64,000 nt of DNA from Escherichia phage ph0011. Below the pieces are notes generated by a model. That model was not told where the DNA came from and made no database searches. It worked only from the letters and a program-made list of their open reading frames with translations. The stretch lies in the sequence record OP557969.1; one strand, given 5' to 3'. This document shows positions 9,507-37,057 of this stretch, piece after piece (position 1 is the first letter of the stretch; each line of letters begins with the position of its first letter). A program made the translations under genes and the position numbers.

Positions 9507-10193
9507 ATGGCTACAATGCTTGATCGATATGGCGTGCCGCTGGCGGGTGGTGGTCGTATCTCTATGAAACAACCGAAAGCAAAATATAAATTTCGTGTCA
9601 TTTTCTTTGGTTTCGGAACTAATGATGATGGTAATATGATTACACTAGACACTAATACAGTAGGGGCAGTATCTGTATCACATGAAAACGTTACTGTTCA
9701 TAGTTACAACAGTTCTGCACATTATAAAGGTAAGTACACATGGGATACCATTGAAATTGCTTTCCGTGATTCTGTTGGTAACGCATCAGCAAAAGCATTA
9801 TATAACCAAATGCGTAAAGAATTTAACTACTACAGCCAAGAATCCCGTATGACTGATTCACAATTTAAATTCGAAATGTGGATTCAGGAACTGGATGGTT
9901 CGAATAGTGAAAATACTTCTAACCTTTTTGAAGGTACGTTGAGTACTTGGGTATGCCAAGGTTGCTTTATTGAATCAAGCAACTTTGGTGATTGGGATTA
10001 TTCATCTAGTGATGCTCAAGTTATTTCAATGACAGTACAACCTGATGGCTGTGCTAAATTGGGTCCAAACGGTGAAGCATTTGGTGATGAAGTTAGTGGT
10101 TTCGGTAATCCTTCTACTGCTACATCTATTTCTGGTGCACAAACCAATATCAGTAGCACTACACTACCTGATAGTAATTTCTATGAAAAATAA
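9507..10193 (+). CDS. tail tube protein (gp19-like)
   Basis: 228 aa; AGGAGA RBS; N-terminal motif YGVPLAGG...QPKAKYKFRVI shared with the next gene; position after sheath. Confidence 0.65.
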   Translation: MATMLDRYGVPLAGGGRISMKQPKAKYKFRVIFFGFGTNDDGNMITLDTNTVGAVSVSHENVTVHSYNSSAHYKGKYTWDTIEIAFRDSVGNASAKALYNQMRKEFNYYSQESRMTDSQFKFEMWIQELDGSNSENTSNLFEGTLSTWVCQGCFIESSNFGDWDYSSSDAQVISMTVQPDGCAKLGPNGEAFGDEVSGFGNPSTATSISGAQTNISSTTLPDSNFYEK

Positions 10194-10213
10194 TTTCATT
10201 TAAACTTAATATA

Positions 10214-10240
10214 GCCTCGAATCATTTCGGGGCTTTTTTT
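10214..10240 (+). terminator. terminator-like hairpin
   Basis: GCCTCGAA-TCAT-TTCGGGGC followed by T7. Confidence 0.45.
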
Positions 10241-10285
10241 ATGCTAAATAAAGTATAATACCTTAAAAAATATAAAGAGGTTGCT

Positions 10286-11062
10286 ATGGCAAATAACATG
10301 ATTAATAAATATGGGGTTCCTTTACCATCAGGGCGTAATAGATCTATGCTTCAACCAAAAGCAAAATACAAGTTTCGTGTTATTGTATATAATTTTGGAA
10401 CTGAAATAAATGAACGAGATCACATCGCACTAGATGTTGATAAAATTGACAGACCTACTGTTACATTTAGCACACATAAACTATATCAATTTACAACCAA
10501 TACATCATATATTGGAAGTCATGATTGGGAGCCAATTACTTTATCTATACGTGATTCTGTTGGTAACGCATCAGCAAAAGCATTATCAAGACAATTACAA
10601 AAACAACTAGACTTTCAACGAAGAATAACTCAAAGAAGGAATCATGACTATGGTTCATATAAATTCGGATTAGTTATACAAATGCTTAGTGGTCGCAATG
10701 CTGATGATACCTTGGATAATTTAGGAAGAGATACTTTAGTTGATGCATCTACCGCTGCAACAAATAATTCTGGTCTTGTCAATGCAGTTGACCAATTTAT
10801 TGGTGGTTCATCATATAATAGTGCAGGTGTAATGGAATACTTTGTTTTAACTGGATGTGTTATTCAAAACATATCATACGATTCTCTGGATTATAGTTCA
10901 AGTTCACCAGTTGAAATGGTTGTAACTATAAAACCAGATAATTGTATACAATTTGATAACATTGAAGAAATGTATAGTACCAGAATAAATTCACTTTTAC
11001 CTGAAAATGTCAATCAAGGGTTAGATATCATTGATCGTGTTTTTGGTAATGTTGGATTTTAA
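10286..11062 (+). CDS. tail tube paralog
   Basis: 258 aa; N-terminus YGVPLPSGRNRSMLQPKAKYKFRVI near-identical in pattern to the preceding tube protein; AAGAGG RBS. Confidence 0.6.
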   Translation: MANNMINKYGVPLPSGRNRSMLQPKAKYKFRVIVYNFGTEINERDHIALDVDKIDRPTVTFSTHKLYQFTTNTSYIGSHDWEPITLSIRDSVGNASAKALSRQLQKQLDFQRRITQRRNHDYGSYKFGLVIQMLSGRNADDTLDNLGRDTLVDASTAATNNSGLVNAVDQFIGGSSYNSAGVMEYFVLTGCVIQNISYDSLDYSSSSPVEMVVTIKPDNCIQFDNIEEMYSTRINSLLPENVNQGLDIIDRVFGNVGF

Positions 11063-27241: not shown

Positions 27242-30200
27242 TTAAGCGGTACGTTGAGCAATAAACATATCTGCTACTGAACTTACACCATCGTAAATTA
27301 CCTGATAGATAGTTACAGAGTTTGCAGTTTTATTTAGAGTCCCATCAACAACAGCATATGTACCATCAGTAGTAAAGTTTCTATTACCAGTTGCATCTTG
27401 TTTAACATAAATGTATACTGATGATGCTTTTCCACCACCGATTAGACCAGTGATTGGTGCTAGAGTAGTATCTTGATCAAGAGTGATGAAGTATACGTTG
27501 CTAGTACCGTCAGGGGTCCAAGTACCATTCGGTGCAATAACAGAGGAAGTTACTTTACTTGGAATAACATCATACTTTTTGGTAGTTACGGTTGTAGTGG
27601 CGAGTTCTGCGTTGGTTGTAGTTAACTTACCAGTAACAGTTACTTCTTTATCAAACACCGCATTTTCTTTGAAAGTTGGTGTTGAATTAACAGTTAGTGT
27701 GTCAGTATTAGTATTACCTAAAACCACACTACCACTTGCTGTCATCAAACCAGAAACAGTTAGTGTACCACCAATAGTTGCATTACCAGTTACTGATGCA
27801 CTAGCAAGTGTAGCTGCACCAGATGTAGTTATTGTTGTAACAGATGCTGCCTCTAGTGTGGTTGCACCAGTTGCGGTAAGTTTACCATCAACTACTAGAT
27901 CACCAGTTACGGATGCACCACCGGACATTGTTACTGCCCCACCGAATGAACCAGTTGTAATTACTTCAAGTGTGTTACCTTTTAGTAATTCAGTTGCTGT
28001 GATACTTGTACCAGCGGTAATGCTTGTACCCGCAGAAACAGTATTAGTTGCAGTTAAGGACTTCACAGCTACATCAGAGTTAGCTTGGTTAAGTTTAGCA
28101 TTTAGAGTACCTGTTACTGTGAAGTCACCGTTGTTAACAACATTACCATTGATAGTTAGATTGTTATTTTGTGAACCGACATCACCAATTGTTGCTGATT
28201 TAGAAATTAACTCAGCACCAGCGGTAATGTTGCCAGCAGCACTGATATTGTTTGCTGCAACAACTGCATAAGGTTCAATTGTTTGACCACTAACATCAAT
28301 ATCTGCGTTAATACCACCATCAACACGCAAAGAACCAGCAATATATGTATTAGGGAAAATCTGAACAGTTTCAGTGTGTTCACCGACCTGTGTACCAACA
28401 ATAACATTAGATCCAGTTTTCACTGCACCAGAAGTTGTTAGAGAACCTACTGTTGCTTTGCCAGTAACACCTAGTGTACCGCCAACAGTTGCATTATTAG
28501 TTACTGCCAATGCTGTTCCTTCACCATTCAGTGTAATTGATGGAGCAGTTGCTTTACCAGTTACATCTAGTGTACCACCAACAGTTGCATTACCATCTGA
28601 ATGTATTGTTGTTGCAACAGAAAGACTGTTTGCAATTACATCCGCACCAGTCAAATCCAATGCACCTGGTGTTAATGTACCAGTAATGTTAACATTATTA
28701 CCAAAGGTTGCTGCACCAGTTACATCTAGTGTAGTGCTAAATGTACCAGAAGTTGCAGAGATTGCACCAGATTCAAGTGAACCAACAGTGGTTTTTCCAG
28801 TTACACCCAGTGTACCACCAACTGTTCCATTTGTTGTAACTTCTAGTGTTCCAGTACTTAGATCTTTTGCTGTCACTTTACCAGATGCGTTAACAGTTGT
28901 TGTTGTAACACCACCACTTAGGGTGCTTGTCCCAGTAACACTGAGTGTTTTTGCTGCACTAACGCTGTTTACAGTAAGATCAGCACCTGATAGGTCTAAA
29001 CCACCTTCAGGAATAAAATTACCCTTAACTGTTAGTTGTTGAACAGTACTGTCACCAGTTACATCTAGTGTAGAAGCAGTCAAACCACCATTCATACTTG
29101 CTGCACCAGTAACATCTAGTGTAGTTGTTACAGTTGCACTGTTTAGTGTGGAGCTACCGGAAATATTAGCACTAGGTGCAGTAATAGATCCTTTTACAAC
29201 TTGTACATCACCCGCAACAACATCAATACCACCAGCATTAACTGTTAGTTTTTCAGCAGTATTCAACGTACTTGAAATTGTTGTTGCACCAGTTAAGGTT
29301 GTAGTTCCAGCTACACTTATGTTTCCAGAGATAGATGGATTACCTGTAATGTCACCAGTAGTGAGAACCAATTCAGTACCTACAGTAGTAGAACCAGTAC
29401 TTTCTAGTGTTACACCAACGATGTTTGCAGAACTTAGGTTAATAGTACCATCAACAGTTAAGTTACCGTGAACGGTCGCATCACCAAGTGAATTTAATGT
29501 TTTCACTGAAACATCAGTTTTACTAAGGTCAATTACACCCGCAGTAAGTGTTCCAGATACTGCCAAATTACCAGTTATTGCTGTATTTTTAGTAATAGAT
29601 ACTGTTTCTGATGCTGACGTAATGGAGCCAGCAGTAAGTGCCCCACCAATGGTTGCATTGTTAGTTACGGTTAACGCTGTTTCTTCACCAGATAGTGTTA
29701 AAGAAATACCATTCATTTCACCAGTAATATTTGCCGATGCCGCAGAAATATCACCAGCAACTACCGCATTTGTTGCGTTTAGGGTTGTTGTGGTAATTTC
29801 AGTACTTTTCACTTTAGGTAGTGCGTTGATACCATCTTTACTATTAACTGTAATAATACCAGAACTTGTTAGAGATTTAACAGAAACATCTGCACCACTT
29901 AAGTTAACTGTACCAGAAACAACTAGATCGCCACCAATATTAGCTCCTTCTGTTGTAGTGATTGATTTTGCATTAACTTCAGTGTTACTCAAATCAATTG
30001 CACCAGGTGATACAGTTCCAGAAACTGTGAGATTACCAGTAACTGTAGTATCATTAGAAATAGATACGCCATCATCATTGCTAATTGTTGGGGTTTCAAT
30101 TGTAACAGCTTTAACTTTACCAGAAGAAGTCATGTCAGCAACAGTAGATGCACCAGTGACCTTTAGATTAGTAATATTTGCAGTAGTTGAGCCAAGTGTA

Positions 30201-32746
30201 GTAATCGTACCATCAGTACTTTCTAGTTTAGGAAGAACACTAGCAATAGAAGATTCGTTACTAACAATTGCACCAGTACTAGTTAAAGATTTGACAGTAA
30301 CATCAGCCGTAGTAAGATCTACTGTACCATTAACAGTTAGGTTACCACCAATAGTTGCACCAGCAGTAGTAGTAATGGATTTAGCATTAACATCAGTTGT
30401 TGCTAGATCGATAGAACCTGGAATAACTGCACCAGTAACGGTTAGGTCACCAGTTACATTTGTATTATTGGAAATAGTGACACCACTTGCATTTGAAATG
30501 GTTGGGGTAACCAACGATGCAGTTGTAGTTTCACCAGTTACAGTTAAAGTTGACCCAACTAGAACAGATGAGCTTGAGTAAATTGTACCCAAATTAGCAG
30601 ATCCGGTAACAGTTATATCATCAGCATTAACAGTAGTTGTCGTTATGGTAGTACTATTAAGTACTGGAAGTACGTTAGCATTAACAAGATCATTACTTTT
30701 AACAATACCAGAAGTAGTTAATGATTTAACATTAAGGTTGGCTGCTGATAAATCAAAAGAGCCTTGAACTACTAAATCACCACCAATAGTTGCACCAGCA
30801 GTAGTAGTGATTGATTTAGCATTAATATCGGTAGTGCTCAAGTCTAGAGAACCAACAGTTAAGCTACCAGTAATATCAACATTTTCGGTGAAGTTAGTAT
30901 CACCACTAATAGTTGGTGCAGTAAGATTTGTTGCACTAATATTAGTACCGTTAATTGTTTGCCCACTTACAGTTCCACTCGCAGTGATAGTAGGAGCCGT
31001 TACTTCAGTAGATGCACTAATTGTTGGTGCAGATACAGAAGTTGTACCAGTAATAGTACCAGAACTTACTGAACCAGCGGATAATGCACCAGAAAGAGTT
31101 GCAGTTGTACCAGCAATATCACCAGTAACAGTTAGTTTAGCACCCACGGTAGTGTTACCAGTACTTTCAAGTGTTGCACCTTTAATATTTGCTGCCGCGA
31201 CAACAGAATTAGGTGTTAGATCTTGACCACTAACATCAACAGTTAGTCCAGTTACTGTTCCAGTAAATTCAACATCATTAAGAATTGCCTTACCACCAAC
31301 TGTAAGGTATGGTGTACTTGGGTCTTGAGTATCGTTACCAGTGATAGTTAGATAATCTAGTTTGTTTAGGCCGTTACCAGTAATACCATAAGAAGATAGT
31401 GATGCATTACCAAAGGTAGCAGTTTTAAGTACTTTCAATGTTGCTGGGGAAACCAACTCAGATTGAACTTCATTAGGTAAAATAACGGTTGGACGTTTAT
31501 CTTGTGCGGTATACGCAAAACCTAGTTTCACAGCAGAATCTTGTGAATTTTGACCTAAACTAATAGCTTTAAAAGAAGCAGTACCGTTTAAACCAGTAAT
31601 ATTAGATCCTAGTGTAACACCACCAACTAAAGAAGACGCACCCTTTATATTTAAAGTGTTTGCATCAATATCATCAAGTTGGAAATCACCACCAAATGTA
31701 CCGGAAACATTAATATTATTAAAATTAGCAGTACCAGTACTTTCAATATCTGGAATGGTTGCTGTTCCAGTAACCTCAAAATCAGCAACTTTAGTTTTAC
31801 CTTTTGTCACTTCTAGAAGTGGGGTGTCAGGTGATTGTGTATCGTTACCAGAAACGGTTAGATAATCTAGTTTGTTTAGACCATTACCAGTAATACCATA
31901 AGAAGACAATGATGCATTACCAAAAGTAGCAGAAGTTAAAACTGTCAATTTAGCAGGTGACATTAATTCAGATTGAATTTCATTTTGTAGAATTACTGTT
32001 GGACGTTTATCAGGAGCACTGTAAGGGAAGCTCAATCTGGAGGTTTGTGATTCAGAGTCGGTTCCGATACGGATATCTTTAAATGTAGCAGTGCTATTAA
32101 TACCAGTTACGTTAGCACCAAAAGTTACCGCACCTTTTTGATTAGATGCACCAGTAACATTCAATGTTTCAGCGTTTAAATCAGAAAGATTAAACTCGCC
32201 ACCTAGTGTACCACTAATATTCACATCTTGAAACTCAGCAGTGCCAGTACTAGTAATGTCAGTTGCGGTAATAGTTGTAATTTCTGCGGAATTGGAAGTA
32301 ATTTTATCAAAAGCAGCGGTTGTACCAACCTCAGCAGATAAGTCCCCTTTAAGTGTTGTTTCTCCCACAACTTCTAAGCTTTTTACTTTAGTTGATTGTA
32401 GTGTGGTTGAACCAGCAGTTTGTGAAAAATCACTACCCACCGACACAGTACCGTTAAACGTAGCACTTGAATTGATTGTTACTGTATCAGAACCACCATC
32501 TGCACTGCCGATTGTGGTATTTCCAGTAATATCAAGGCCACCACTTAATGTTGCTTTACCACCAACATCTAAAGTAGAGTTGATGATAGCTGTTTCAGTT
32601 TCAATAGCAGTAAATGTTGCGTTTGCAAAAGAGATACTACCATCTACTCTTAGGTTATTCTTGATTACTGCATTACCTTTGACTAATAGATCCTTACCAA
32701 CTGTTCCAGCACCAGTAATATCTAAGTCAGTTTTTATTGAGTACAT
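27242..32746 (-). CDS. long tail fibre protein
   Basis: 1834 aa; GGAGGG RBS; extreme T/S/G/N/V composition typical of beta-structured fibres; large internal tandem duplications. Confidence 0.75.
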   Translation of the reverse strand: MYSIKTDLDITGAGTVGKDLLVKGNAVIKNNLRVDGSISFANATFTAIETETAIINSTLDVGGKATLSGGLDITGNTTIGSADGGSDTVTINSSATFNGTVSVGSDFSQTAGSTTLQSTKVKSLEVVGETTLKGDLSAEVGTTAAFDKITSNSAEITTITATDITSTGTAEFQDVNISGTLGGEFNLSDLNAETLNVTGASNQKGAVTFGANVTGINSTATFKDIRIGTDSESQTSRLSFPYSAPDKRPTVILQNEIQSELMSPAKLTVLTSATFGNASLSSYGITGNGLNKLDYLTVSGNDTQSPDTPLLEVTKGKTKVADFEVTGTATIPDIESTGTANFNNINVSGTFGGDFQLDDIDANTLNIKGASSLVGGVTLGSNITGLNGTASFKAISLGQNSQDSAVKLGFAYTAQDKRPTVILPNEVQSELVSPATLKVLKTATFGNASLSSYGITGNGLNKLDYLTITGNDTQDPSTPYLTVGGKAILNDVEFTGTVTGLTVDVSGQDLTPNSVVAAANIKGATLESTGNTTVGAKLTVTGDIAGTTATLSGALSAGSVSSGTITGTTSVSAPTISASTEVTAPTITASGTVSGQTINGTNISATNLTAPTISGDTNFTENVDITGSLTVGSLDLSTTDINAKSITTTAGATIGGDLVVQGSFDLSAANLNVKSLTTSGIVKSNDLVNANVLPVLNSTTITTTTVNADDITVTGSANLGTIYSSSSVLVGSTLTVTGETTTASLVTPTISNASGVTISNNTNVTGDLTVTGAVIPGSIDLATTDVNAKSITTTAGATIGGNLTVNGTVDLTTADVTVKSLTSTGAIVSNESSIASVLPKLESTDGTITTLGSTTANITNLKVTGASTVADMTSSGKVKAVTIETPTISNDDGVSISNDTTVTGNLTVSGTVSPGAIDLSNTEVNAKSITTTEGANIGGDLVVSGTVNLSGADVSVKSLTSSGIITVNSKDGINALPKVKSTEITTTTLNATNAVVAGDISAASANITGEMNGISLTLSGEETALTVTNNATIGGALTAGSITSASETVSITKNTAITGNLAVSGTLTAGVIDLSKTDVSVKTLNSLGDATVHGNLTVDGTINLSSANIVGVTLESTGSTTVGTELVLTTGDITGNPSISGNISVAGTTTLTGATTISSTLNTAEKLTVNAGGIDVVAGDVQVVKGSITAPSANISGSSTLNSATVTTTLDVTGAASMNGGLTASTLDVTGDSTVQQLTVKGNFIPEGGLDLSGADLTVNSVSAAKTLSVTGTSTLSGGVTTTTVNASGKVTAKDLSTGTLEVTTNGTVGGTLGVTGKTTVGSLESGAISATSGTFSTTLDVTGAATFGNNVNITGTLTPGALDLTGADVIANSLSVATTIHSDGNATVGGTLDVTGKATAPSITLNGEGTALAVTNNATVGGTLGVTGKATVGSLTTSGAVKTGSNVIVGTQVGEHTETVQIFPNTYIAGSLRVDGGINADIDVSGQTIEPYAVVAANNISAAGNITAGAELISKSATIGDVGSQNNNLTINGNVVNNGDFTVTGTLNAKLNQANSDVAVKSLTATNTVSAGTSITAGTSITATELLKGNTLEVITTGSFGGAVTMSGGASVTGDLVVDGKLTATGATTLEAASVTTITTSGAATLASASVTGNATIGGTLTVSGLMTASGSVVLGNTNTDTLTVNSTPTFKENAVFDKEVTVTGKLTTTNAELATTTVTTKKYDVIPSKVTSSVIAPNGTWTPDGTSNVYFITLDQDTTLAPITGLIGGGKASSVYIYVKQDATGNRNFTTDGTYAVVDGTLNKTANSVTIYQVIYDGVSSVADMFIAQRTA
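29400..30900 (-). repeat. intragenic tandem repeat array, about 4 units of ~435 bp
   Basis: Protein units of ~145 aa each containing D(I/V)NAKSITTT.GA.IGG..V...V.L..A.V.VKSLT; matching DNA near 29930, 30370 and 30800; boundaries approximate. Confidence 0.5.
31250..32260 (-). repeat. intragenic tandem duplication, two units of ~510 bp
   Basis: Protein segments ~aa 162-330 and 331-500 highly similar (KRPTVIL.NE.QSEL.SPA.L.VL..ATFGNASLSSYGITGNGLNKLDYLT); DNA copies recognisable by eye; boundaries approximate. Confidence 0.55.
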
Positions 32747-32821: not shown

Positions 32822-32853
32822 TAAAAAACCAGACTTATTTGAATAAGCCCGGT
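32822..32853 (-). terminator. terminator-like hairpin (minus strand)
   Basis: Imperfect hairpin followed by T-run on the minus strand, just downstream of stop at 32863. Confidence 0.35.
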
Positions 32854-32862
32854 TTAATTTTA

Positions 32863-33759
32863 TTACTTACCAGAGATAACAATCTTCCCACTGAATGCAA
32901 CATCAGAAGTAAAGATCACGTCACCAGTATTGCTAATTTGTGTATCAGTTATTACCAATTCAAATGGTGAGGATGCAACACTACCAGGTGTTTTATTTGC
33001 ATAAATCGAAACATACAAATTGTCTGGTGATTGTTTGTGTTCAGATGCTGAAATCGTGATGATGAACACATCGTTATTAGAAATCCAATCTGCTTGGTTT
33101 ACTAATTTACTATAAGGTACTGTCATTGTTGTTGCTCCTATAATGTTTACTTTAACATTTGCATAATCTGTAATTTTACCAATTACATCTATTGTGATAT
33201 CACCAGTGCCGCTTACTACTACAGAGGTTTGAAATACGGAATCCAATGTTATACTACCATGAGGATCACCCTGTAGTTGTACCATGATATCAGGACCACG
33301 CCCATGTACAGATGCTGGAAGGGTGTATGTGTAATGGTCGGTAGTATCTGAAACTAATGTAAATGAAGATACTGGTATAGTTTCAGTTGTTACATATGGA
33401 CTATCAGTTTCATGTGAACTACCTTTGAATGATTTCCAAATACCAAGATCTTTAATATAAATTTGAAGAACATTAGTTTCATCAACTAAAAAATACAAAT
33501 CACCATCTAACCCAATAGTTTCATCCGGTGCACTGGTTCCACGCAAAATACCAGAACTCCCACCACTATGTGCGTTTAGATATCCTAACGTAACCAGGTG
33601 TGTGTCAGCGGTCGGTTCACCTGCTGAAATTGGAAGAAGTTTTGTTCCTGAGTAGTTTTGTATTTGCACAACACTACCATTTGTGGTAATCTGTGCACCA
33701 TTCTTCCCAAGAATGAAGGACTTCTTCATGGTTCCTTCTAAATTAGAAAAAACTGCCAT
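32863..33759 (-). CDS. short tailspike/fibre protein with shared N-terminal anchor domain
   Basis: 298 aa; N-terminus MAVFSNLEGTMKKSFILGKNGAQI nearly identical to that of the upstream 713-aa tailspike; GGAG RBS. Confidence 0.65.
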   Translation of the reverse strand: MAVFSNLEGTMKKSFILGKNGAQITTNGSVVQIQNYSGTKLLPISAGEPTADTHLVTLGYLNAHSGGSSGILRGTSAPDETIGLDGDLYFLVDETNVLQIYIKDLGIWKSFKGSSHETDSPYVTTETIPVSSFTLVSDTTDHYTYTLPASVHGRGPDIMVQLQGDPHGSITLDSVFQTSVVVSGTGDITIDVIGKITDYANVKVNIIGATTMTVPYSKLVNQADWISNNDVFIITISASEHKQSPDNLYVSIYANKTPGSVASSPFELVITDTQISNTGDVIFTSDVAFSGKIVISGK

Positions 33760-33775
33760 TTTAATTTAATCTCCT

Positions 33776-35917
33776 TTATGGTAGGGTTATGTACGTTACT
33801 GGTTGGGCGGCTTTTAATGATGCACCAGCGGCAGTTGCTGTTATGATGGGATCTGCAATATCAATTCTATATACGTTATTAACAACATATACTGCACGAG
33901 TTATATACGTTTTCAAATCATCACCATTTTCTCCAGCACCAGATATGATGATCTCAGTTCCCGCCGCTTTTGCATATTGGTTATCACCCCATGACACACC
34001 CAATGCTTCTATGTACGTTTGTCCTACTACCGTTTGTCTAATTGTGTCATATTTTCCAAAAAATGAACCACCCACTGTTACAATATATTTTCCACCTGAT
34101 TTTTTATGTATAATCGTTCCTTCTGGGAAGTATCTTCCACCAGGGAAAGTATCATATGGAATATAATATTGTTCAACTACAGGTATTAGAACTGGGCCAC
34201 GATGACCAGTACCGTCAATAGCAGTTGTTACTTTAAAATTATTAGATGATTGGTCGATTCTATCTACGTACATTTTAGAAAAACTATATTTTGAAACATT
34301 ACAATCATCTTGAACAACACAGTTAGTCCAATTAGTATAAGTATATTTAGAGCGAGTATACATTCCCCCACCCTCACCTTCAGTGGAAAGGTGTTGTCCT
34401 ATTACATCTAATTCTTTTGTTCTGATATCACTAAACTTAGATGAAGATGGTAGACCACGCCAAAGAATTTTAGAACAAGTGATATTACTTAATTCTGTAC
34501 TATTCAGCCAATTATCAGAACCAGAAGTATAAACGAATACGGAAGACTCTGGTATATAGAGATTGGAAATTTTAAAGTTTCTAGGTGGTCCAGCAAATCG
34601 ACCAGCAGTTACCCCCCAGTTAATAGATACCATACGGTTTGTGATTGTAGGATCATTAAGTAAATGTCCGGTTAAACCATCAATTACAAACTCTTTTGAG
34701 CCATAAGTTATCACACCAGCAGTTGTTAATCCAGTACCAACTGAAATTAGAGATGATGGATACACTTCGTTATCAAGTATTTTAAAGTCCATTCCCAATT
34801 CAACATGGATACATTGTCTAACATTATAAATTCTATTGTTCTTAATAACAAAGTTTCTAACGTATTGGGTATCAGGTGCATCCAGACCATAAGGACCAGA
34901 ACCCGCAACACCAATACCGATACCCCAGTTTGAAAGTGGGATTGGTGCATCTGAACCATCAACGTTTTCAATGATATTACCTTCGATTACAAAACCATCA
35001 GGATAATGTGAGTTAATAACGTTTAATTCTATTGCATCACCATATATATCATGAATATGGTTGTAAGAATAACGCCCCACTTTCATTTTCTCACCAGTTC
35101 CTTGCTGAAGAACGCCATATTTACATTTGGTCATTTCATTAAAGCAAAAATCTATTGTTCCTGGTTGGGTCATACCTTGCATCAAAAACGCGGCAGTACT
35201 GGTAATGTTTACAAATTTATTAAAATAAAATTTACCATCCCCACCAAAGAATTTCAAATAACATCCAGTAAGTGTGGTGAATTGAATTTGTGAATTAATA
35301 ACGGATATCATAGTACCACCATTACCAGTAATAGTGCCACCAAACCAAGTTACATCTTCCAAATATACTGCTTTTTTGATACGATAATTACCACCTGCTT
35401 GAATTTGTATTTTATTTTCTTTGGCATAAGTTGCACACAAATTTACAGCTTCAGTGTCATCGGTTTCCCCATCTCCTTTCGCACCAAATTCTTCTGGTGT
35501 TATATAGAACTGTGCTTGTTGAACTGTGCCACCAGTAATAAGGCCAATGAAATCACCACCATTTTTACTTGATAGTACTTTTTTATTAATGTATAGTGAT
35601 TTAATCCATGTGCCATTTGTTTTTACGAAAATATCAACAATACCATCTTCATCAATTTGAAAATAAGTGTTATTGTTTTTTCCAATATCACCAGACGGTG
35701 GTTGAACGCCAAATAAGGCATTTGGATTATCTTCAAGGTATCTAACATTAACTGCTGAATCTTGGTCTGATGGTGTTCCTATCTTTAGTGGTAGAAACTT
35801 TTCACCGAGATAATCTTTTATCGATACGGAATCATTGACGAAATTTATCGAAGCACCATTTTTACCCAATATCATTTTTGGTTTCATGGTTCCTTCAAAA
35901 TTAGAAAATACTGCCAT
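33776..35917 (-). CDS. tailspike protein (beta-helix, depolymerase candidate) with shared N-terminal anchor domain
   Basis: 713 aa; N-terminus MAVFSNFEGTMKPKMILGKNGASI; central region with motifs like NNRIYNVRQCIHVE and repetitive G/N-rich turns suggestive of a right-handed beta-helix; GGGGG RBS. Confidence 0.65.
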   Translation of the reverse strand: MAVFSNFEGTMKPKMILGKNGASINFVNDSVSIKDYLGEKFLPLKIGTPSDQDSAVNVRYLEDNPNALFGVQPPSGDIGKNNNTYFQIDEDGIVDIFVKTNGTWIKSLYINKKVLSSKNGGDFIGLITGGTVQQAQFYITPEEFGAKGDGETDDTEAVNLCATYAKENKIQIQAGGNYRIKKAVYLEDVTWFGGTITGNGGTMISVINSQIQFTTLTGCYLKFFGGDGKFYFNKFVNITSTAAFLMQGMTQPGTIDFCFNEMTKCKYGVLQQGTGEKMKVGRYSYNHIHDIYGDAIELNVINSHYPDGFVIEGNIIENVDGSDAPIPLSNWGIGIGVAGSGPYGLDAPDTQYVRNFVIKNNRIYNVRQCIHVELGMDFKILDNEVYPSSLISVGTGLTTAGVITYGSKEFVIDGLTGHLLNDPTITNRMVSINWGVTAGRFAGPPRNFKISNLYIPESSVFVYTSGSDNWLNSTELSNITCSKILWRGLPSSSKFSDIRTKELDVIGQHLSTEGEGGGMYTRSKYTYTNWTNCVVQDDCNVSKYSFSKMYVDRIDQSSNNFKVTTAIDGTGHRGPVLIPVVEQYYIPYDTFPGGRYFPEGTIIHKKSGGKYIVTVGGSFFGKYDTIRQTVVGQTYIEALGVSWGDNQYAKAAGTEIIISGAGENGDDLKTYITRAVYVVNNVYRIDIADPIITATAAGASLKAAQPVTYITLP

Positions 35918-35929
35918 TGTGACACCCCC

Positions 35930-37057
35930 TTAAATATTATCTTGAATAGGTTGGACCGGAGCTTGCCACGAAAGAGTACAAATAATTTCCATTTTACCAT
36001 AAGGACTGTTATTAACTGAATCATTGAATACACATGAAATAATTTCATCTACATCTGAAACTTCATGATTTGTTTCATTGACGATAAAACGCATCTGGTT
36101 ATTAATATCAAAGTAGGTTGTTGGTGCAATTACGGTTCCACCAATATTCTCGTTTGCTTCACCACCAAATCGAACAAACATATCAGTTACTGGTTGTGAA
36201 TAAGGTTGTAAAACATTTACATCTATATTAGAAACTACATATCCAGAAGGACAAGTCCCAATAACTAATAGAGCATTAGTCCATGATCTATCAATAACGT
36301 TTCTAATTGTTACAGTATCTTTGCCTGGTGCACCCGGTTCACCTTGCTTACCTTGAATACCTTGTGGACCTTCTTTACCACGGAATAAAATACCACTACT
36401 CCATTCTTTTGATGGTGGGGTGGTAGTTGTTACTTCATCCACATAATAAAGCTTACCATCAGTGTTGTTATAGAAACAATAATCAATTGGGAGGTTTTCA
36501 ATACTTGGAAATTGATCACCACTATCGTCAATATGAAAACGACCACGTGGACCTTGCTCACCACGGAAAGGAATACCATCACTCCATGTAGCTGTTACTT
36601 TTTGATAAAAATATAGTTTACCATCTTGTGTATTGTAAAATGTATAGTTATCAAAAAGACCAGAACTTGGAAAAGTAGTTCCTGCACTATCGATATGAAA
36701 AGGCTTACCAGCTTCACCAGTATCACCTTTACCAAATTCAACACTAGTCCAAGTACTGGTTTCTTCTTGTGCATCATTTGATTTAAAATACAGAGTACTT
36801 GTGTTATTTGCCAAACTAAGATAGCACCAGCCAAGCGGTTCACCAACTTTAAATTTATCAGATGGAACTTCAAAACCAATCTCATTAGGATAAAAGTTTT
36901 TACCGTTCTGACCATTTTGTCCCACAACAAGACCGAGATCTTGAATTGTATTATCTGTATATGTTACAATTAAATGACCAGCATTATTAATAACTAGACT
37001 TTTGATGCCTGAGTTATTACATGAACCACTGGACCCATTGTTAAATGTAATTGTCAT
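35930..37057 (-). CDS. collagen-like repeat tail fibre protein
   Basis: 375 aa; G-x-y triplets (GPQGIQGKQGEPGAPGKD; RGEQGPRGR); AGGGAA RBS; heads the fibre operon. Confidence 0.7.
   Translation of the reverse strand: MTITFNNGSSGSCNNSGIKSLVINNAGHLIVTYTDNTIQDLGLVVGQNGQNGKNFYPNEIGFEVPSDKFKVGEPLGWCYLSLANNTSTLYFKSNDAQEETSTWTSVEFGKGDTGEAGKPFHIDSAGTTFPSSGLFDNYTFYNTQDGKLYFYQKVTATWSDGIPFRGEQGPRGRFHIDDSGDQFPSIENLPIDYCFYNNTDGKLYYVDEVTTTTPPSKEWSSGILFRGKEGPQGIQGKQGEPGAPGKDTVTIRNVIDRSWTNALLVIGTCPSGYVVSNIDVNVLQPYSQPVTDMFVRFGGEANENIGGTVIAPTTYFDINNQMRFIVNETNHEVSDVDEIISCVFNDSVNNSPYGKMEIICTLSWQAPVQPIQDNI

What the first reader, a model, noticed from the sequence alone, without database searches (positions are those of the whole stretch)
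32863..35917. Two adjacent tailspike genes share a near-identical N-terminal anchor module
Both proteins begin MAVFSN(L/F)EGTMK...ILGKNGA(Q/S)I and then diverge completely. This pattern indicates a common attachment domain with swapped receptor-binding bodies, a hallmark of modular host-range evolution.
Basis: seen in the sequence. Interest (0 to 1): 0.5.

Follow-up and report, generated by a model that had tools for sequence, protein, structure and literature searches.

The report
Shared anchor on two phage tail proteins
Two neighbouring virion genes of a jumbo E. coli phage start with the same ~105-residue module, joined to a capsule-degrading enzyme in one and a small non-enzymatic body in the other; this is a real but ordinary case of phages reusing an N-terminal module on different tail proteins.

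Summary
The two minus-strand ORFs (713 aa "gpA", 298 aa "gpB") share 18 of their first 23 residues. Homology continues to about residue 105 at 41% identity (E = 5e-21), then stops.

The window is an Asteriusvirus-like (121Q/PBECO4/UE-S1) jumbo coliphage. gpA is a chimera. Residues 1-105 are the module. Residues ~106-713 are a phi92 gp150-type colanidase (PDB 6E0V, E = 4e-237), a body also found in unrelated phage lineages.

gpB is not a tailspike. It is a conserved virion protein (its CBB ortholog was detected by mass spectrometry) with a beta-sandwich body, present as a single copy in all Rak2-like jumbo phages. The colanidase gene is an extra gene found only in the Escherichia-type members of this group.

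The module has two parts. N1 (~65 aa) is always at the extreme N-terminus and heads at least four other body types in uncultured phages. N2 (~40 aa) is one copy of a widespread repeat whose best structural match is a collagen trimerization domain.

The two copies are old paralogs (saturated dS, no gene conversion). Unusually, gpA's anchor has diverged more than its enzyme body. Docking to the virion is inferred, not shown. Verdict: a new member of a known kind, of modest interest.

The parts
33776..35917 (-). gpA: 713-aa chimeric colanidase tailspike (ortholog of 121Q gp573 and the PBECO4 colanic-acid-degrading protein)
   Evidence: ORF; phrog_6117 'colanic acid degradation' E = 4e-260 over aa 93-711 only; PDB 6E0V phi92 gp150 E = 4e-237 over aa 101-712; synteny with 121Q
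35723..35917 (-). gpA sub-module N1 (aa 1-65): N-terminal peptide MAVFSNFEGTMK, three-stranded beta-meander, and the P..D.DSAVN.RYLEDN motif with a short helix
   Evidence: Profile positions 1-65 match only the extreme N-termini of diverse proteins; N1 HMM E = 6e-29; AF2 model strands 14-17, 22-27, 30-35 and helix 58-63, pLDDT 84-92
35603..35722 (-). gpA sub-module N2 (aa 66-105): single copy of a widespread ~38-aa fibre repeat (G..P....G...Y......(I)...K..G.W)
   Evidence: Profile positions ~66-112 match up to 17 repeats per protein in hundreds of proteins; broad N2 HMM E = 2.7e-9 at aa 72-109 of the stop-to-stop frame, which carries 4 extra N-terminal residues, so about protein aa 68-105; four beta-strands 67-106
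33776..35602 (-). gpA body (aa ~106-713): phi92 gp150 / WcaM-like colanidase
   Evidence: 57% identity to the Justusliebigvirus colanidase from gpA aa ~96-108 to the C-terminus; 6E0V; WcaM hits
32863..33759 (-). gpB: 298-aa conserved virion structural protein (ortholog of 121Q gp572, GAP32_221, CBB_227)
   Evidence: ORF; phrog_10468 E = 1.9e-84; 68 homologs, 66 of them 284-309 aa at 100% coverage; CBB_227 detected in virions by MS/MS (PMC5259590)
33565..33759 (-). gpB sub-module N1 (aa 1-65)
   Evidence: N1 HMM E = 8e-34; the most conserved segment of gpB (dN 0.014 vs 121Q)
33430..33564 (-). gpB sub-module N2 (aa 66-110), preceded by a Gly-rich linker that gpA lacks
   Evidence: Alignment A4; broad N2 HMM E = 5e-10 at aa 73-111 of the stop-to-stop frame, which carries 2 extra N-terminal residues, so about protein aa 71-109
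32863..33429 (-). gpB body (aa ~111-298): beta-strand (beta-sandwich) body, no enzymatic signature
32826..32855 (-). Terminator-like hairpin (13-bp stem followed by a T-run) immediately after the gpB stop codon
35930..37057 (-). Upstream 375-aa 'tail protein' gene (12 nt before gpA), apparently co-transcribed; always directly upstream of the module-bearing gene in the six Rak2-like relatives whose loci were read
   Evidence: (phrog_13565); orthologs abundant in virions (phAPEC6 gp253 65.6% coverage; CBB_228)

Best explanation
The two genes encode two different virion proteins that carry paralogous copies of one N-terminal attachment-and-trimerization module.

The module has two parts. N1 (~65 aa) comprises an almost invariant N-terminal peptide MA(V/I)FSN.(E/D)GTM., a small beta-meander and an EP....(H/D)(A/L)V...Y motif. 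It most likely plugs the protein into a conserved site on the tail or baseplate. N2 (~40 aa) is a four-stranded unit resembling a collagen trimerization domain. It most likely nucleates the trimer and forms the neck to the body.

gpB (module plus a beta-sandwich body) is the ancestral, vertically inherited holder of the module in all Rak2-like jumbo phages.

gpA is an extra gene found only in the Escherichia-type members of the group, inserted between the 375-aa tail-protein gene and gpB. Its anchor is an old, diverged paralog of the module, fused at about residue 105 to a phi92 gp150-type colanidase body that is shared horizontally with unrelated coliphages. This mounts a colanic-acid-capsule-degrading enzyme on the virion without any new adaptor gene at this locus.

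Shown here: the homology, boundaries, chimeric junction, distribution, age of the paralogs, purifying selection, and virion presence of the gpB ortholog. Inferred: that N1 docks to the virion, that N2 trimerizes, and where the proteins sit.
For: Homology and boundaries: BLASTP 41% over ~105 aa, E = 5e-21. The junction with phi92-type colanidase lies at gpA aa ~96-108, and that protein has an unrelated ~190-aa N-terminus. The body matches PDB 6E0V at E = 4e-237.

Distribution: two copies per Escherichia-type genome (Asteriusvirus and close relatives), one per genome in Klebsiella, Cronobacter, Erwinia, Yersinia, Serratia, Pectobacterium, Xanthomonas and Munch-type Salmonella relatives, in the same syntenic slot in every relative whose locus was read. 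The colanidase body occurs in Justusliebigvirus, Phapecoctavirus and ~42-kb podoviruses.

Two sub-modules: the exhaustive profile search shows N1 only at N-termini, on colanidase, pectate-lyase/S74, beta-helix and BNR/sialidase-like bodies of 276-1366 aa, and N2 as a repeat in hundreds of proteins, often alternating with collagen triplets. Stand-alone N1+N2 proteins exist (RaK2 ORF061 115 aa; P0072, P0074).

Evolution: gpB-type N1 is 59-71% identical to GAP32 and RaK2, gpA-type only 35-50% to any gpB-type. Paralog dS is saturated, and all segments show dN/dS 0.04-0.34.

Virion presence: CBB_227 was detected by MS/MS (PMC5259590).

Precedent: conserved N-terminal anchors or peptides on co-encoded RBPs (PMC6872550; PMC10253068; bioRxiv 10.64898/2026.05.12.724579).
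Confidence: 0.65

Rival explanations
1. The shared N-terminus is only a folding or trimerization nucleus (a registration domain for trimeric fibres), not a virion anchor. Attachment would be mediated by other parts or other proteins.
For: The best structural match is a collagen trimerization domain. N2 is a generic repeat found in non-phage collagen-like surface adhesins, for example P0079 with an LPXTG anchor. Elements resembling the end of N1 plus N2 recur weakly inside the long fibre P0099, at domain E = 0.03 and 0.01.
Against: Full N1 matches are always at the extreme N-terminus, and the first 12 residues are almost invariant across very distant phages and unrelated bodies. That fits a binding peptide better than a folding nucleus. 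Stand-alone N1+N2 proteins such as RaK2 ORF061 would have nothing to trimerize.
Confidence: 0.2
2. gpA and gpB dock to each other. gpB would be an adaptor that carries the colanidase, and the similar N-termini would form a hetero-oligomeric joint rather than binding a common virion site.
For: The genes are adjacent, 16 nt apart, and apparently co-transcribed, with a terminator directly after gpB. In gpA-carrying genomes gpB is always the next gene in the loci read.
Against: gpB is conserved and virion-associated in genera that lack gpA entirely, so its primary role does not depend on gpA. JP4 keeps an intact gpB although its gpA has lost most of its body. The two anchors have diverged to 41% identity with different linkers, which argues against mixed trimers.
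Confidence: 0.1
3. The similarity is a recent tandem duplication or gene conversion of the 5' end, a transient genomic accident with no functional meaning.
For: The first ~36 nt of the two coding sequences are nearly identical, while the rest of the module DNA is only ~55-60% identical.
Against: Synonymous divergence between the paralogs is saturated, even in codons 1-23 (dS about 1.2; 2.1 for the rest). The same N-terminal peptide is conserved at the protein level in RaK2, GAP32 and metagenomic phages. Both copies are under purifying selection and are present in the Escherichia-type genomes of the group.
Confidence: 0.03

Closest known systems
Phage phi92 gp150 colanidase tailspike (PDB 6E0V/6E0W) and its Justusliebigvirus orthologs
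   Same: The gpA body (aa ~106-713) is homologous end to end: E = 4e-237 to 6E0V and 57% identity to phage PaulScherrer bas60_0035. It is related to bacterial WcaM. The PBECO4 ortholog is the subject of an experimental study of colanic-acid degradation (Kim et al. 2015 AEM 81:900, known to me only through reference 35 of PMC10059673).
   Different: The N-terminal ~190 aa of the phi92-type protein are replaced in gpA by the unrelated 105-aa N1+N2 module of Rak2-like jumbo phages.
Anchor / 'conserved peptide' architecture of multi-RBP phages (Latka et al. 2019 for KP32-, Menlow- and PhiK64-1-group Klebsiella phages; CBA120 TSP1-4; K1-5/SP6)
   Same: Co-encoded tail proteins share a conserved N-terminal segment followed by unrelated bodies. 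Truncated holders of the anchor occur: JP4 gpA at 201 aa and RaK2 ORF061 at 115 aa, compared with the 'truncated RBP' of Latka et al..
   Different: No T4 gp10-like branching domain was identified in the neighbouring genes. The module is a different sequence family, with no Pfam or NCBIfam family reported for gpA or gpB. One of the two holders (gpB) is a conserved non-enzymatic protein, not an RBP cassette. The anchor of gpA is less conserved than its body.
RaK2 / PhiK64-1 branched long tail fibres (gp526-gp534, anchor on gp528)
   Same: Same phage supergroup, and the same principle of N-terminal domains assembling depolymerases onto the baseplate (PMC10253068).
   Different: Different locus and a different anchor: the paper reports the gp528 anchor as having no homologs outside alcyoneusviruses. 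RaK2's homolog of the present module is the unstudied 115-aa ORF061.
Collagen XV/XVIII (multiplexin) trimerization domain (PDB 3N3F, 9BNB)

Membership tests
phi92 gp150-type colanidase tailspike | Sequence homology across the whole catalytic body to the solved gp150 structure | tested here: met
   phmmer E = 4.1e-237, gpA 101-712 vs 6E0V chain 16-623; 57% identity to a full-length Justusliebigvirus ortholog
phi92 gp150-type colanidase tailspike | Colanic-acid-degrading activity | not testable with these tools
   Only indirect: the PBECO4 ortholog (84.5% identical over the first 110 aa) is described in PMC10059673 as likely involved in polysaccharide degradation, citing Kim et al. 2015, which could not be read
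phi92 gp150-type colanidase tailspike | Same N-terminal particle-binding region as phi92 gp150 | tested here: not met
   No similarity between gpA aa 1-95 and aa 1-188 of the phi92-type protein
Tailspike (trimeric beta-helix depolymerase), applied to gpB | Central parallel beta-helix or other enzymatic domain | tested here: not met
phrog_10468 virion structural protein (gpB family) | Full-length profile match and conserved length | tested here: met
   E = 1.9e-84 over aa 1-298; 66 homologs of 284-309 aa at 100% coverage; CBB_227 detected in virions
Anchor/conserved-peptide multi-RBP system (Latka et al. 2019) | Co-encoded tail proteins share an N-terminal segment and differ completely downstream | tested here: met
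Anchor/conserved-peptide multi-RBP system (Latka et al. 2019) | A partner RBP carries a T4 gp10-like branching/docking domain | tested here: inconclusive
   Pfam and PHROG scans of gpA, gpB, the 375-aa protein, the giant fibre and the three divergent neighbours gave no such hit. HHpred-type or structural searches of those proteins were not run.
Anchor/conserved-peptide multi-RBP system (Latka et al. 2019) | Physical docking of the N-terminus to the virion or to the primary RBP | not testable with these tools
   Needs cryo-EM, pull-downs or multimer modelling
Pfam PF27114 Phage_tail_beta | Profile hit on the protein | tested here: not met
   Precomputed hits list PF27114 on P0096 and its 780-aa neighbour, but not on the gpA-type P0071 (only PF27800 WcaM) or the adjacent 300-aa gpB-type. 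The local Pfam copy did not report this family for any protein scanned.

The most novel reading that the evidence does not exclude
N1 is an uncharacterised, widely distributed 'plug' domain. It lets jumbo and other large uncultured phages mount very different bodies (colanidase, pectate-lyase/S74, beta-helix, BNR-sialidase-like fibres, Ig-like stubs, or nothing at all) on one conserved socket. In the Escherichia-type phages the two co-resident anchors have been driven apart, with gpA's anchor diverging faster than its enzyme, so that the two trimers neither mix nor compete. In other words, they would be orthogonal plug-socket pairs produced by paralog insulation.
Probability: 0.2. Interest if true: 0.5.

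Novelty: new member of a known kind. Interest (0 to 1): 0.3.

Why it matters
It defines, to within a few residues, the boundary at which a colanidase has been joined naturally to a jumbo-phage N-terminal module. That boundary is a practical guide for engineering new depolymerases onto Asteriusvirus or Rak2-like virions. It corrects the view that both genes are tailspikes. It also flags an N-terminal domain (N1) and a ~38-aa repeat (N2) for which I found no applicable Pfam or NCBIfam family and no solved structure. The underlying principle, reuse of N-terminal anchors by modular receptor-binding proteins, is already well established.

Tried and rejected
1. The word-index protein search with the 110-aa module found nothing. 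The exhaustive profile search was needed instead.
2. Further copies in the window: tblastn, N1/N2 HMMs and a broadened N2 profile (710 repeat instances) all find only gpA and gpB. The 375-aa neighbour, despite its DGKLY/collagen-like repeats, is not detected.
3. Further copies elsewhere in related genomes: three different N1 queries give at most two places per genome at E <= 0.01.
4. Gene conversion or recent duplication: rejected by saturated dS.
5. Positive selection on gpA's anchor: rejected, dN/dS 0.06-0.12 where dS could be estimated.
6. PF27114 as the name of the module: not listed for the gpA or gpB types.
8. RaK2 ORF060 as a split-off gpB body: no similarity.
9. The phAPEC6 proteome as evidence on virion presence: unusable, because its GenBank record lacks both CDSs.
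10. Kim et al. 2015 could not be read.
11. The sigma-70 promoter scan was uninformative: fewer hits than in shuffled sequence.
12. L005 and L007 share no gene with the window other than N1.
Full report
OBSERVATION. The window region 32863-35917 holds two co-directional minus-strand ORFs separated by 16 nt. I call them gpA (33776..35917, 713 aa) and gpB (32863..33759, 298 aa). Their N-termini read MAVFSNFEGTMKPKMILGKNGASI and MAVFSNLEGTMKKSFILGKNGAQI, which is 18/23 identical. BLASTP aligns gpA 1-104 with gpB 1-108 at 44/108 identities (41%), E = 5e-21, with nothing significant downstream. However, the module is about 105 residues long rather than ~24, and it is only moderately conserved after the first 23 residues. 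At DNA level only the first ~36 coding nucleotides are nearly identical. tblastn, N1/N2 profile HMMs and a broadened repeat profile find no third copy anywhere in the 64-kb window.

IDENTITY OF THE GENOME AND GENES. The region is 92.6% identical at DNA level to Escherichia phage UE-S1 and ~87% identical to 121Q, PBECO4, phAPEC6 and other Asteriusvirus jumbo coliphages. gpA corresponds to 121Q gp573 ('colanic acid degradation') and gpB to gp572 ('virion structural protein'). PHROGs matches gpA only from residue 93 onward (phrog_6117, E = 4e-260) and gpB over its full length (phrog_10468, E = 1.9e-84). gpA residues 101-712 match the crystallised phage phi92 gp150 colanidase (PDB 6E0V) at E = 4e-237 and are distantly related to bacterial WcaM. 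The PBECO4 ortholog is the colanic-acid-degrading enzyme of Kim et al. 2015. I know that paper only through reference 35 of PMC10059673, because the paper itself is not held.

gpA IS A CHIMERA WITH A SHARP JUNCTION. Against a full-length phi92-type colanidase (phage PaulScherrer, 804 aa), homology runs from gpA ~96-108 (phi92-type ~189-200) to the C-terminus at 57% identity. The phi92-type protein has an unrelated ~190-aa N-terminus. The gpA/gpB homology ends at gpA W104. The two homology blocks therefore abut within a few residues. The colanidase body also occurs in Justusliebigvirus, Phapecoctavirus, ~42-kb podoviruses and other phages, so it is a horizontally shared cassette.

DISTRIBUTION AND SYNTENY. 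A tblastn search of 50,697 phage records with the module finds 71 records, all Rak2-like jumbo phages. The listed Escherichia-type genomes (Asteriusvirus and close relatives, including the SD-series Salmonella phages) hold two copies. The exception is Escherichia phage EJP2, which holds one. Klebsiella (RaK2, K64-1), Cronobacter GAP32, Pectobacterium CBB, Serratia BF, and the Erwinia, Yersinia, Xanthomonas and Munch-type Salmonella phages hold one. In every relative whose locus I read, the module gene lies directly downstream of a conserved ~375-aa 'tail protein' gene, within the block ClpA / structural protein / gp15-like sheath completion / NUDIX / three divergent structural genes. In most of them (not RaK2) a giant fibre gene follows. 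Apart from the RaK2 differences just noted, the only change in the Escherichia-type phages is the extra colanidase gene inserted between the 375-aa gene and gpB. A strong terminator-like hairpin lies directly after gpB (32855..32826). The 375-aa gene, gpA and gpB, with 12-nt and 16-nt gaps, therefore look like one transcription unit.

THE MODULE HAS TWO PARTS. An exhaustive profile search of 1.84 billion representative proteins gave 297 hits at E <= 1e-3.

- Profile positions 1-65 (N1) match only at the extreme N-terminus of proteins of 276-1366 aa. The bodies behind N1 include the colanidase (P0071), a pectate-lyase-like spike with an endosialidase-chaperone domain (P0092), a beta-helix spike (P0096), BNR/sialidase-like fibres of 1200-1366 aa with CBM5/12 (P0099, P0112, P0119, P0166, P0176, P0190), and small unannotated proteins. 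N1+N2 also exists as a stand-alone protein: RaK2 ORF061 (115 aa), P0072 and P0074. RaK2's next gene is unrelated to the gpB body.
- Positions ~66-112 (N2) match a repeat present up to 17 times per protein in hundreds of proteins, often alternating with collagen Gly-X-Y tracts, including LPXTG-anchored collagen-like adhesins. The consensus from 710 instances is TILSGTGAPANSLGKDGDFYLDTDTGDVYPKANGAWVK.

One uncultured 120-kb contig carries two N1-headed spikes in one locus, which is an independent instance of the same pattern. These contigs share nothing else with the window. Among deposited phage genomes, N1 is restricted to the same Rak2-like records.

EVOLUTION. gpB-type modules are 56-69% identical to the single-copy modules of GAP32 and RaK2. 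gpA-type modules are only 34-48% identical to any gpB-type or single-copy module, and are no closer to the gpB in the same genome. In a neighbour-joining tree of N1 (~65 positions, no support values), gpB-type and single-copy sequences form one clade that roughly follows the genera. gpA-type anchors form a separate clade next to other spike-type N1 domains. Synonymous divergence between the two paralogs is saturated (dS 1.2 for codons 1-23, 2.1 beyond), which excludes recent duplication or gene conversion. All segments are under purifying selection (dN/dS 0.04-0.34). The near-identity of the first 12 residues is therefore protein-level constraint. The same peptide is conserved in RaK2, GAP32 and metagenomic phages.

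One unexpected detail concerns relative conservation. In gpB the module is more conserved than the body (93% vs 81% to 121Q; 68% vs 41% to GAP32). In gpA the anchor is less conserved than the colanidase body (84% vs 95% to 121Q; 65% vs 87% to Turkey5). This is the opposite of the textbook 'conserved anchor, variable body' pattern.

MECHANISM (INFERRED). Several observations point the same way: N1's strict N-terminal position, its invariant leading peptide, its occurrence on unrelated bodies, the stand-alone and truncated forms, the fixed position of the gene within a tail/baseplate gene block, and the virion presence of the gpB ortholog. The most likely reading is that N1 plugs the protein into a conserved virion socket and that N2 nucleates the trimer and forms the neck. 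gpA thereby mounts a colanic-acid-degrading enzyme on the virion without any new adaptor gene at this locus. Whether gpA and gpB share one type of site or use separate sites is unknown. Rivals are trimerization only, gpA-gpB heteromeric docking, and recent duplication; they are weighed in the rival section. The last is essentially excluded.

COMPARISON WITH KNOWN SYSTEMS AND NOVELTY. The principle is well established, through anchor domains and 'conserved peptides' of multi-RBP Klebsiella phages, CBA120 TSPs and RaK2 gp528 (PMC6872550, PMC10253068, bioRxiv 10.64898/2026.05.12.724579). I found no description of this particular module or of this gene pair in the Asteriusvirus and RaK2 papers I read. 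RaK2 ORF061 is not mentioned in the RaK2 adsorption-complex study. This is therefore a new member of a known kind. The modest added points are the bipartite N1/N2 anatomy, the breadth of N1 in uncultured phages, and the anchor diverging faster than the enzyme.

Noticed in passing
L009 5001-5606 (Escherichia phage JP4, PQ330092.1): JP4's gpA-type gene is only 201 aa. An in-frame internal deletion joins ...GAKGDGE to NGGDLRTYITRAV..., removing roughly residues 152-661 of the colanidase while keeping the N1+N2 anchor and the last ~50 residues. It is still annotated 'colanic acid degradation'.
   Followed up: partly
L002 9001-9348 (RaK2 ORF061) and 9513-11045 (ORF060): RaK2's homolog of the module gene is a stand-alone 115-aa N1+N2 protein, and the next gene is unrelated to the gpB body. 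RaK2 also lacks the giant CBB_226-type fibre (stated in PMC5259590). The gpB body and the giant fibre may therefore have been lost together, hinting that the gpB body interacts with that fibre.
   Followed up: partly
L004 6747-9954 (phAPEC6, MK817115.1): The phAPEC6 GenBank record has no CDS annotated for the gpA and gpB orthologs (gp254 and gp255 are skipped between gp253 and gp256), although the DNA is ~87% identical to the window. Their absence from the published virion proteome table therefore cannot be interpreted.
   Followed up: partly
L005 1-10118 (uncultured 120-kb contig, SRR18476386_53): Two N1-headed spikes lie in one locus: a 780-aa protein with Peptidase_S74 and a 705-aa protein with a beta-helix. 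They are separated by two paralogous phrog_3573 proteins (902 and 919 aa) and a 199-aa gene. Both spikes carry precomputed PF27114 'Phage_tail_beta' hits that the gpA and gpB types lack.
   Followed up: partly
window 27242-32746 (-): The 1834-aa giant fibre gene (phrog_4549, eight matched stretches; Pfam Bactofilin-like hit E = 2.8e-9) contains an internal near-duplicate block of ~130 aa (FNLSDLNAETLNVTGASNQKG...LDYLTVSGNDTQ vs FQLDDIDANTLNIKGASSLVG...LDYLTITGNDTQ) and many shorter repeats.
   Followed up: no
window 35930-37057 (-): The upstream 375-aa 'tail protein' has two F(Y/H)N..DGKLY...W...GI.FRG.(E/Q)GP.G units followed by a short collagen-like Gly-X-Y tract (weak Pfam Collagen hit, E = 0.0045). 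It superficially resembles N2, but neither N2 profile detects it.
   Followed up: partly
records under hits H1, H8, H12, H14, H22: Annotation of the gpA ortholog is inconsistent across GenBank records: 'colanic acid biosynthesis protein' in UE-S1, slurp01, Sharanji and fEgEco12, and 'hypothetical protein' elsewhere. For vB_EcoM_CRJP21 the features listed under the match include 'MutT/NUDIX hydrolase' and 'Clp protease' names. The enzyme is a degrading colanidase, not a biosynthetic protein.
   Followed up: no
window 35603-35722 and 33430-33564 (N2): The N2 profile has sub-significant sequence resemblance to PQQ-like beta-propeller blade motifs in designed 'Bagel' proteins (E = 0.45). In the multi-repeat protein P0079 an NCBIfam 'MiiA motif' (NF053582) hit appears at E = 4e-4, below its cut-off. 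The repeat has no applicable named family in the libraries searched.
   Followed up: partly
window ~24000: GC skew and AT skew change sign at about 24 kb (positive before, mostly negative after), coinciding with a switch of coding strand into the minus-strand tail-fibre genes.
   Followed up: no
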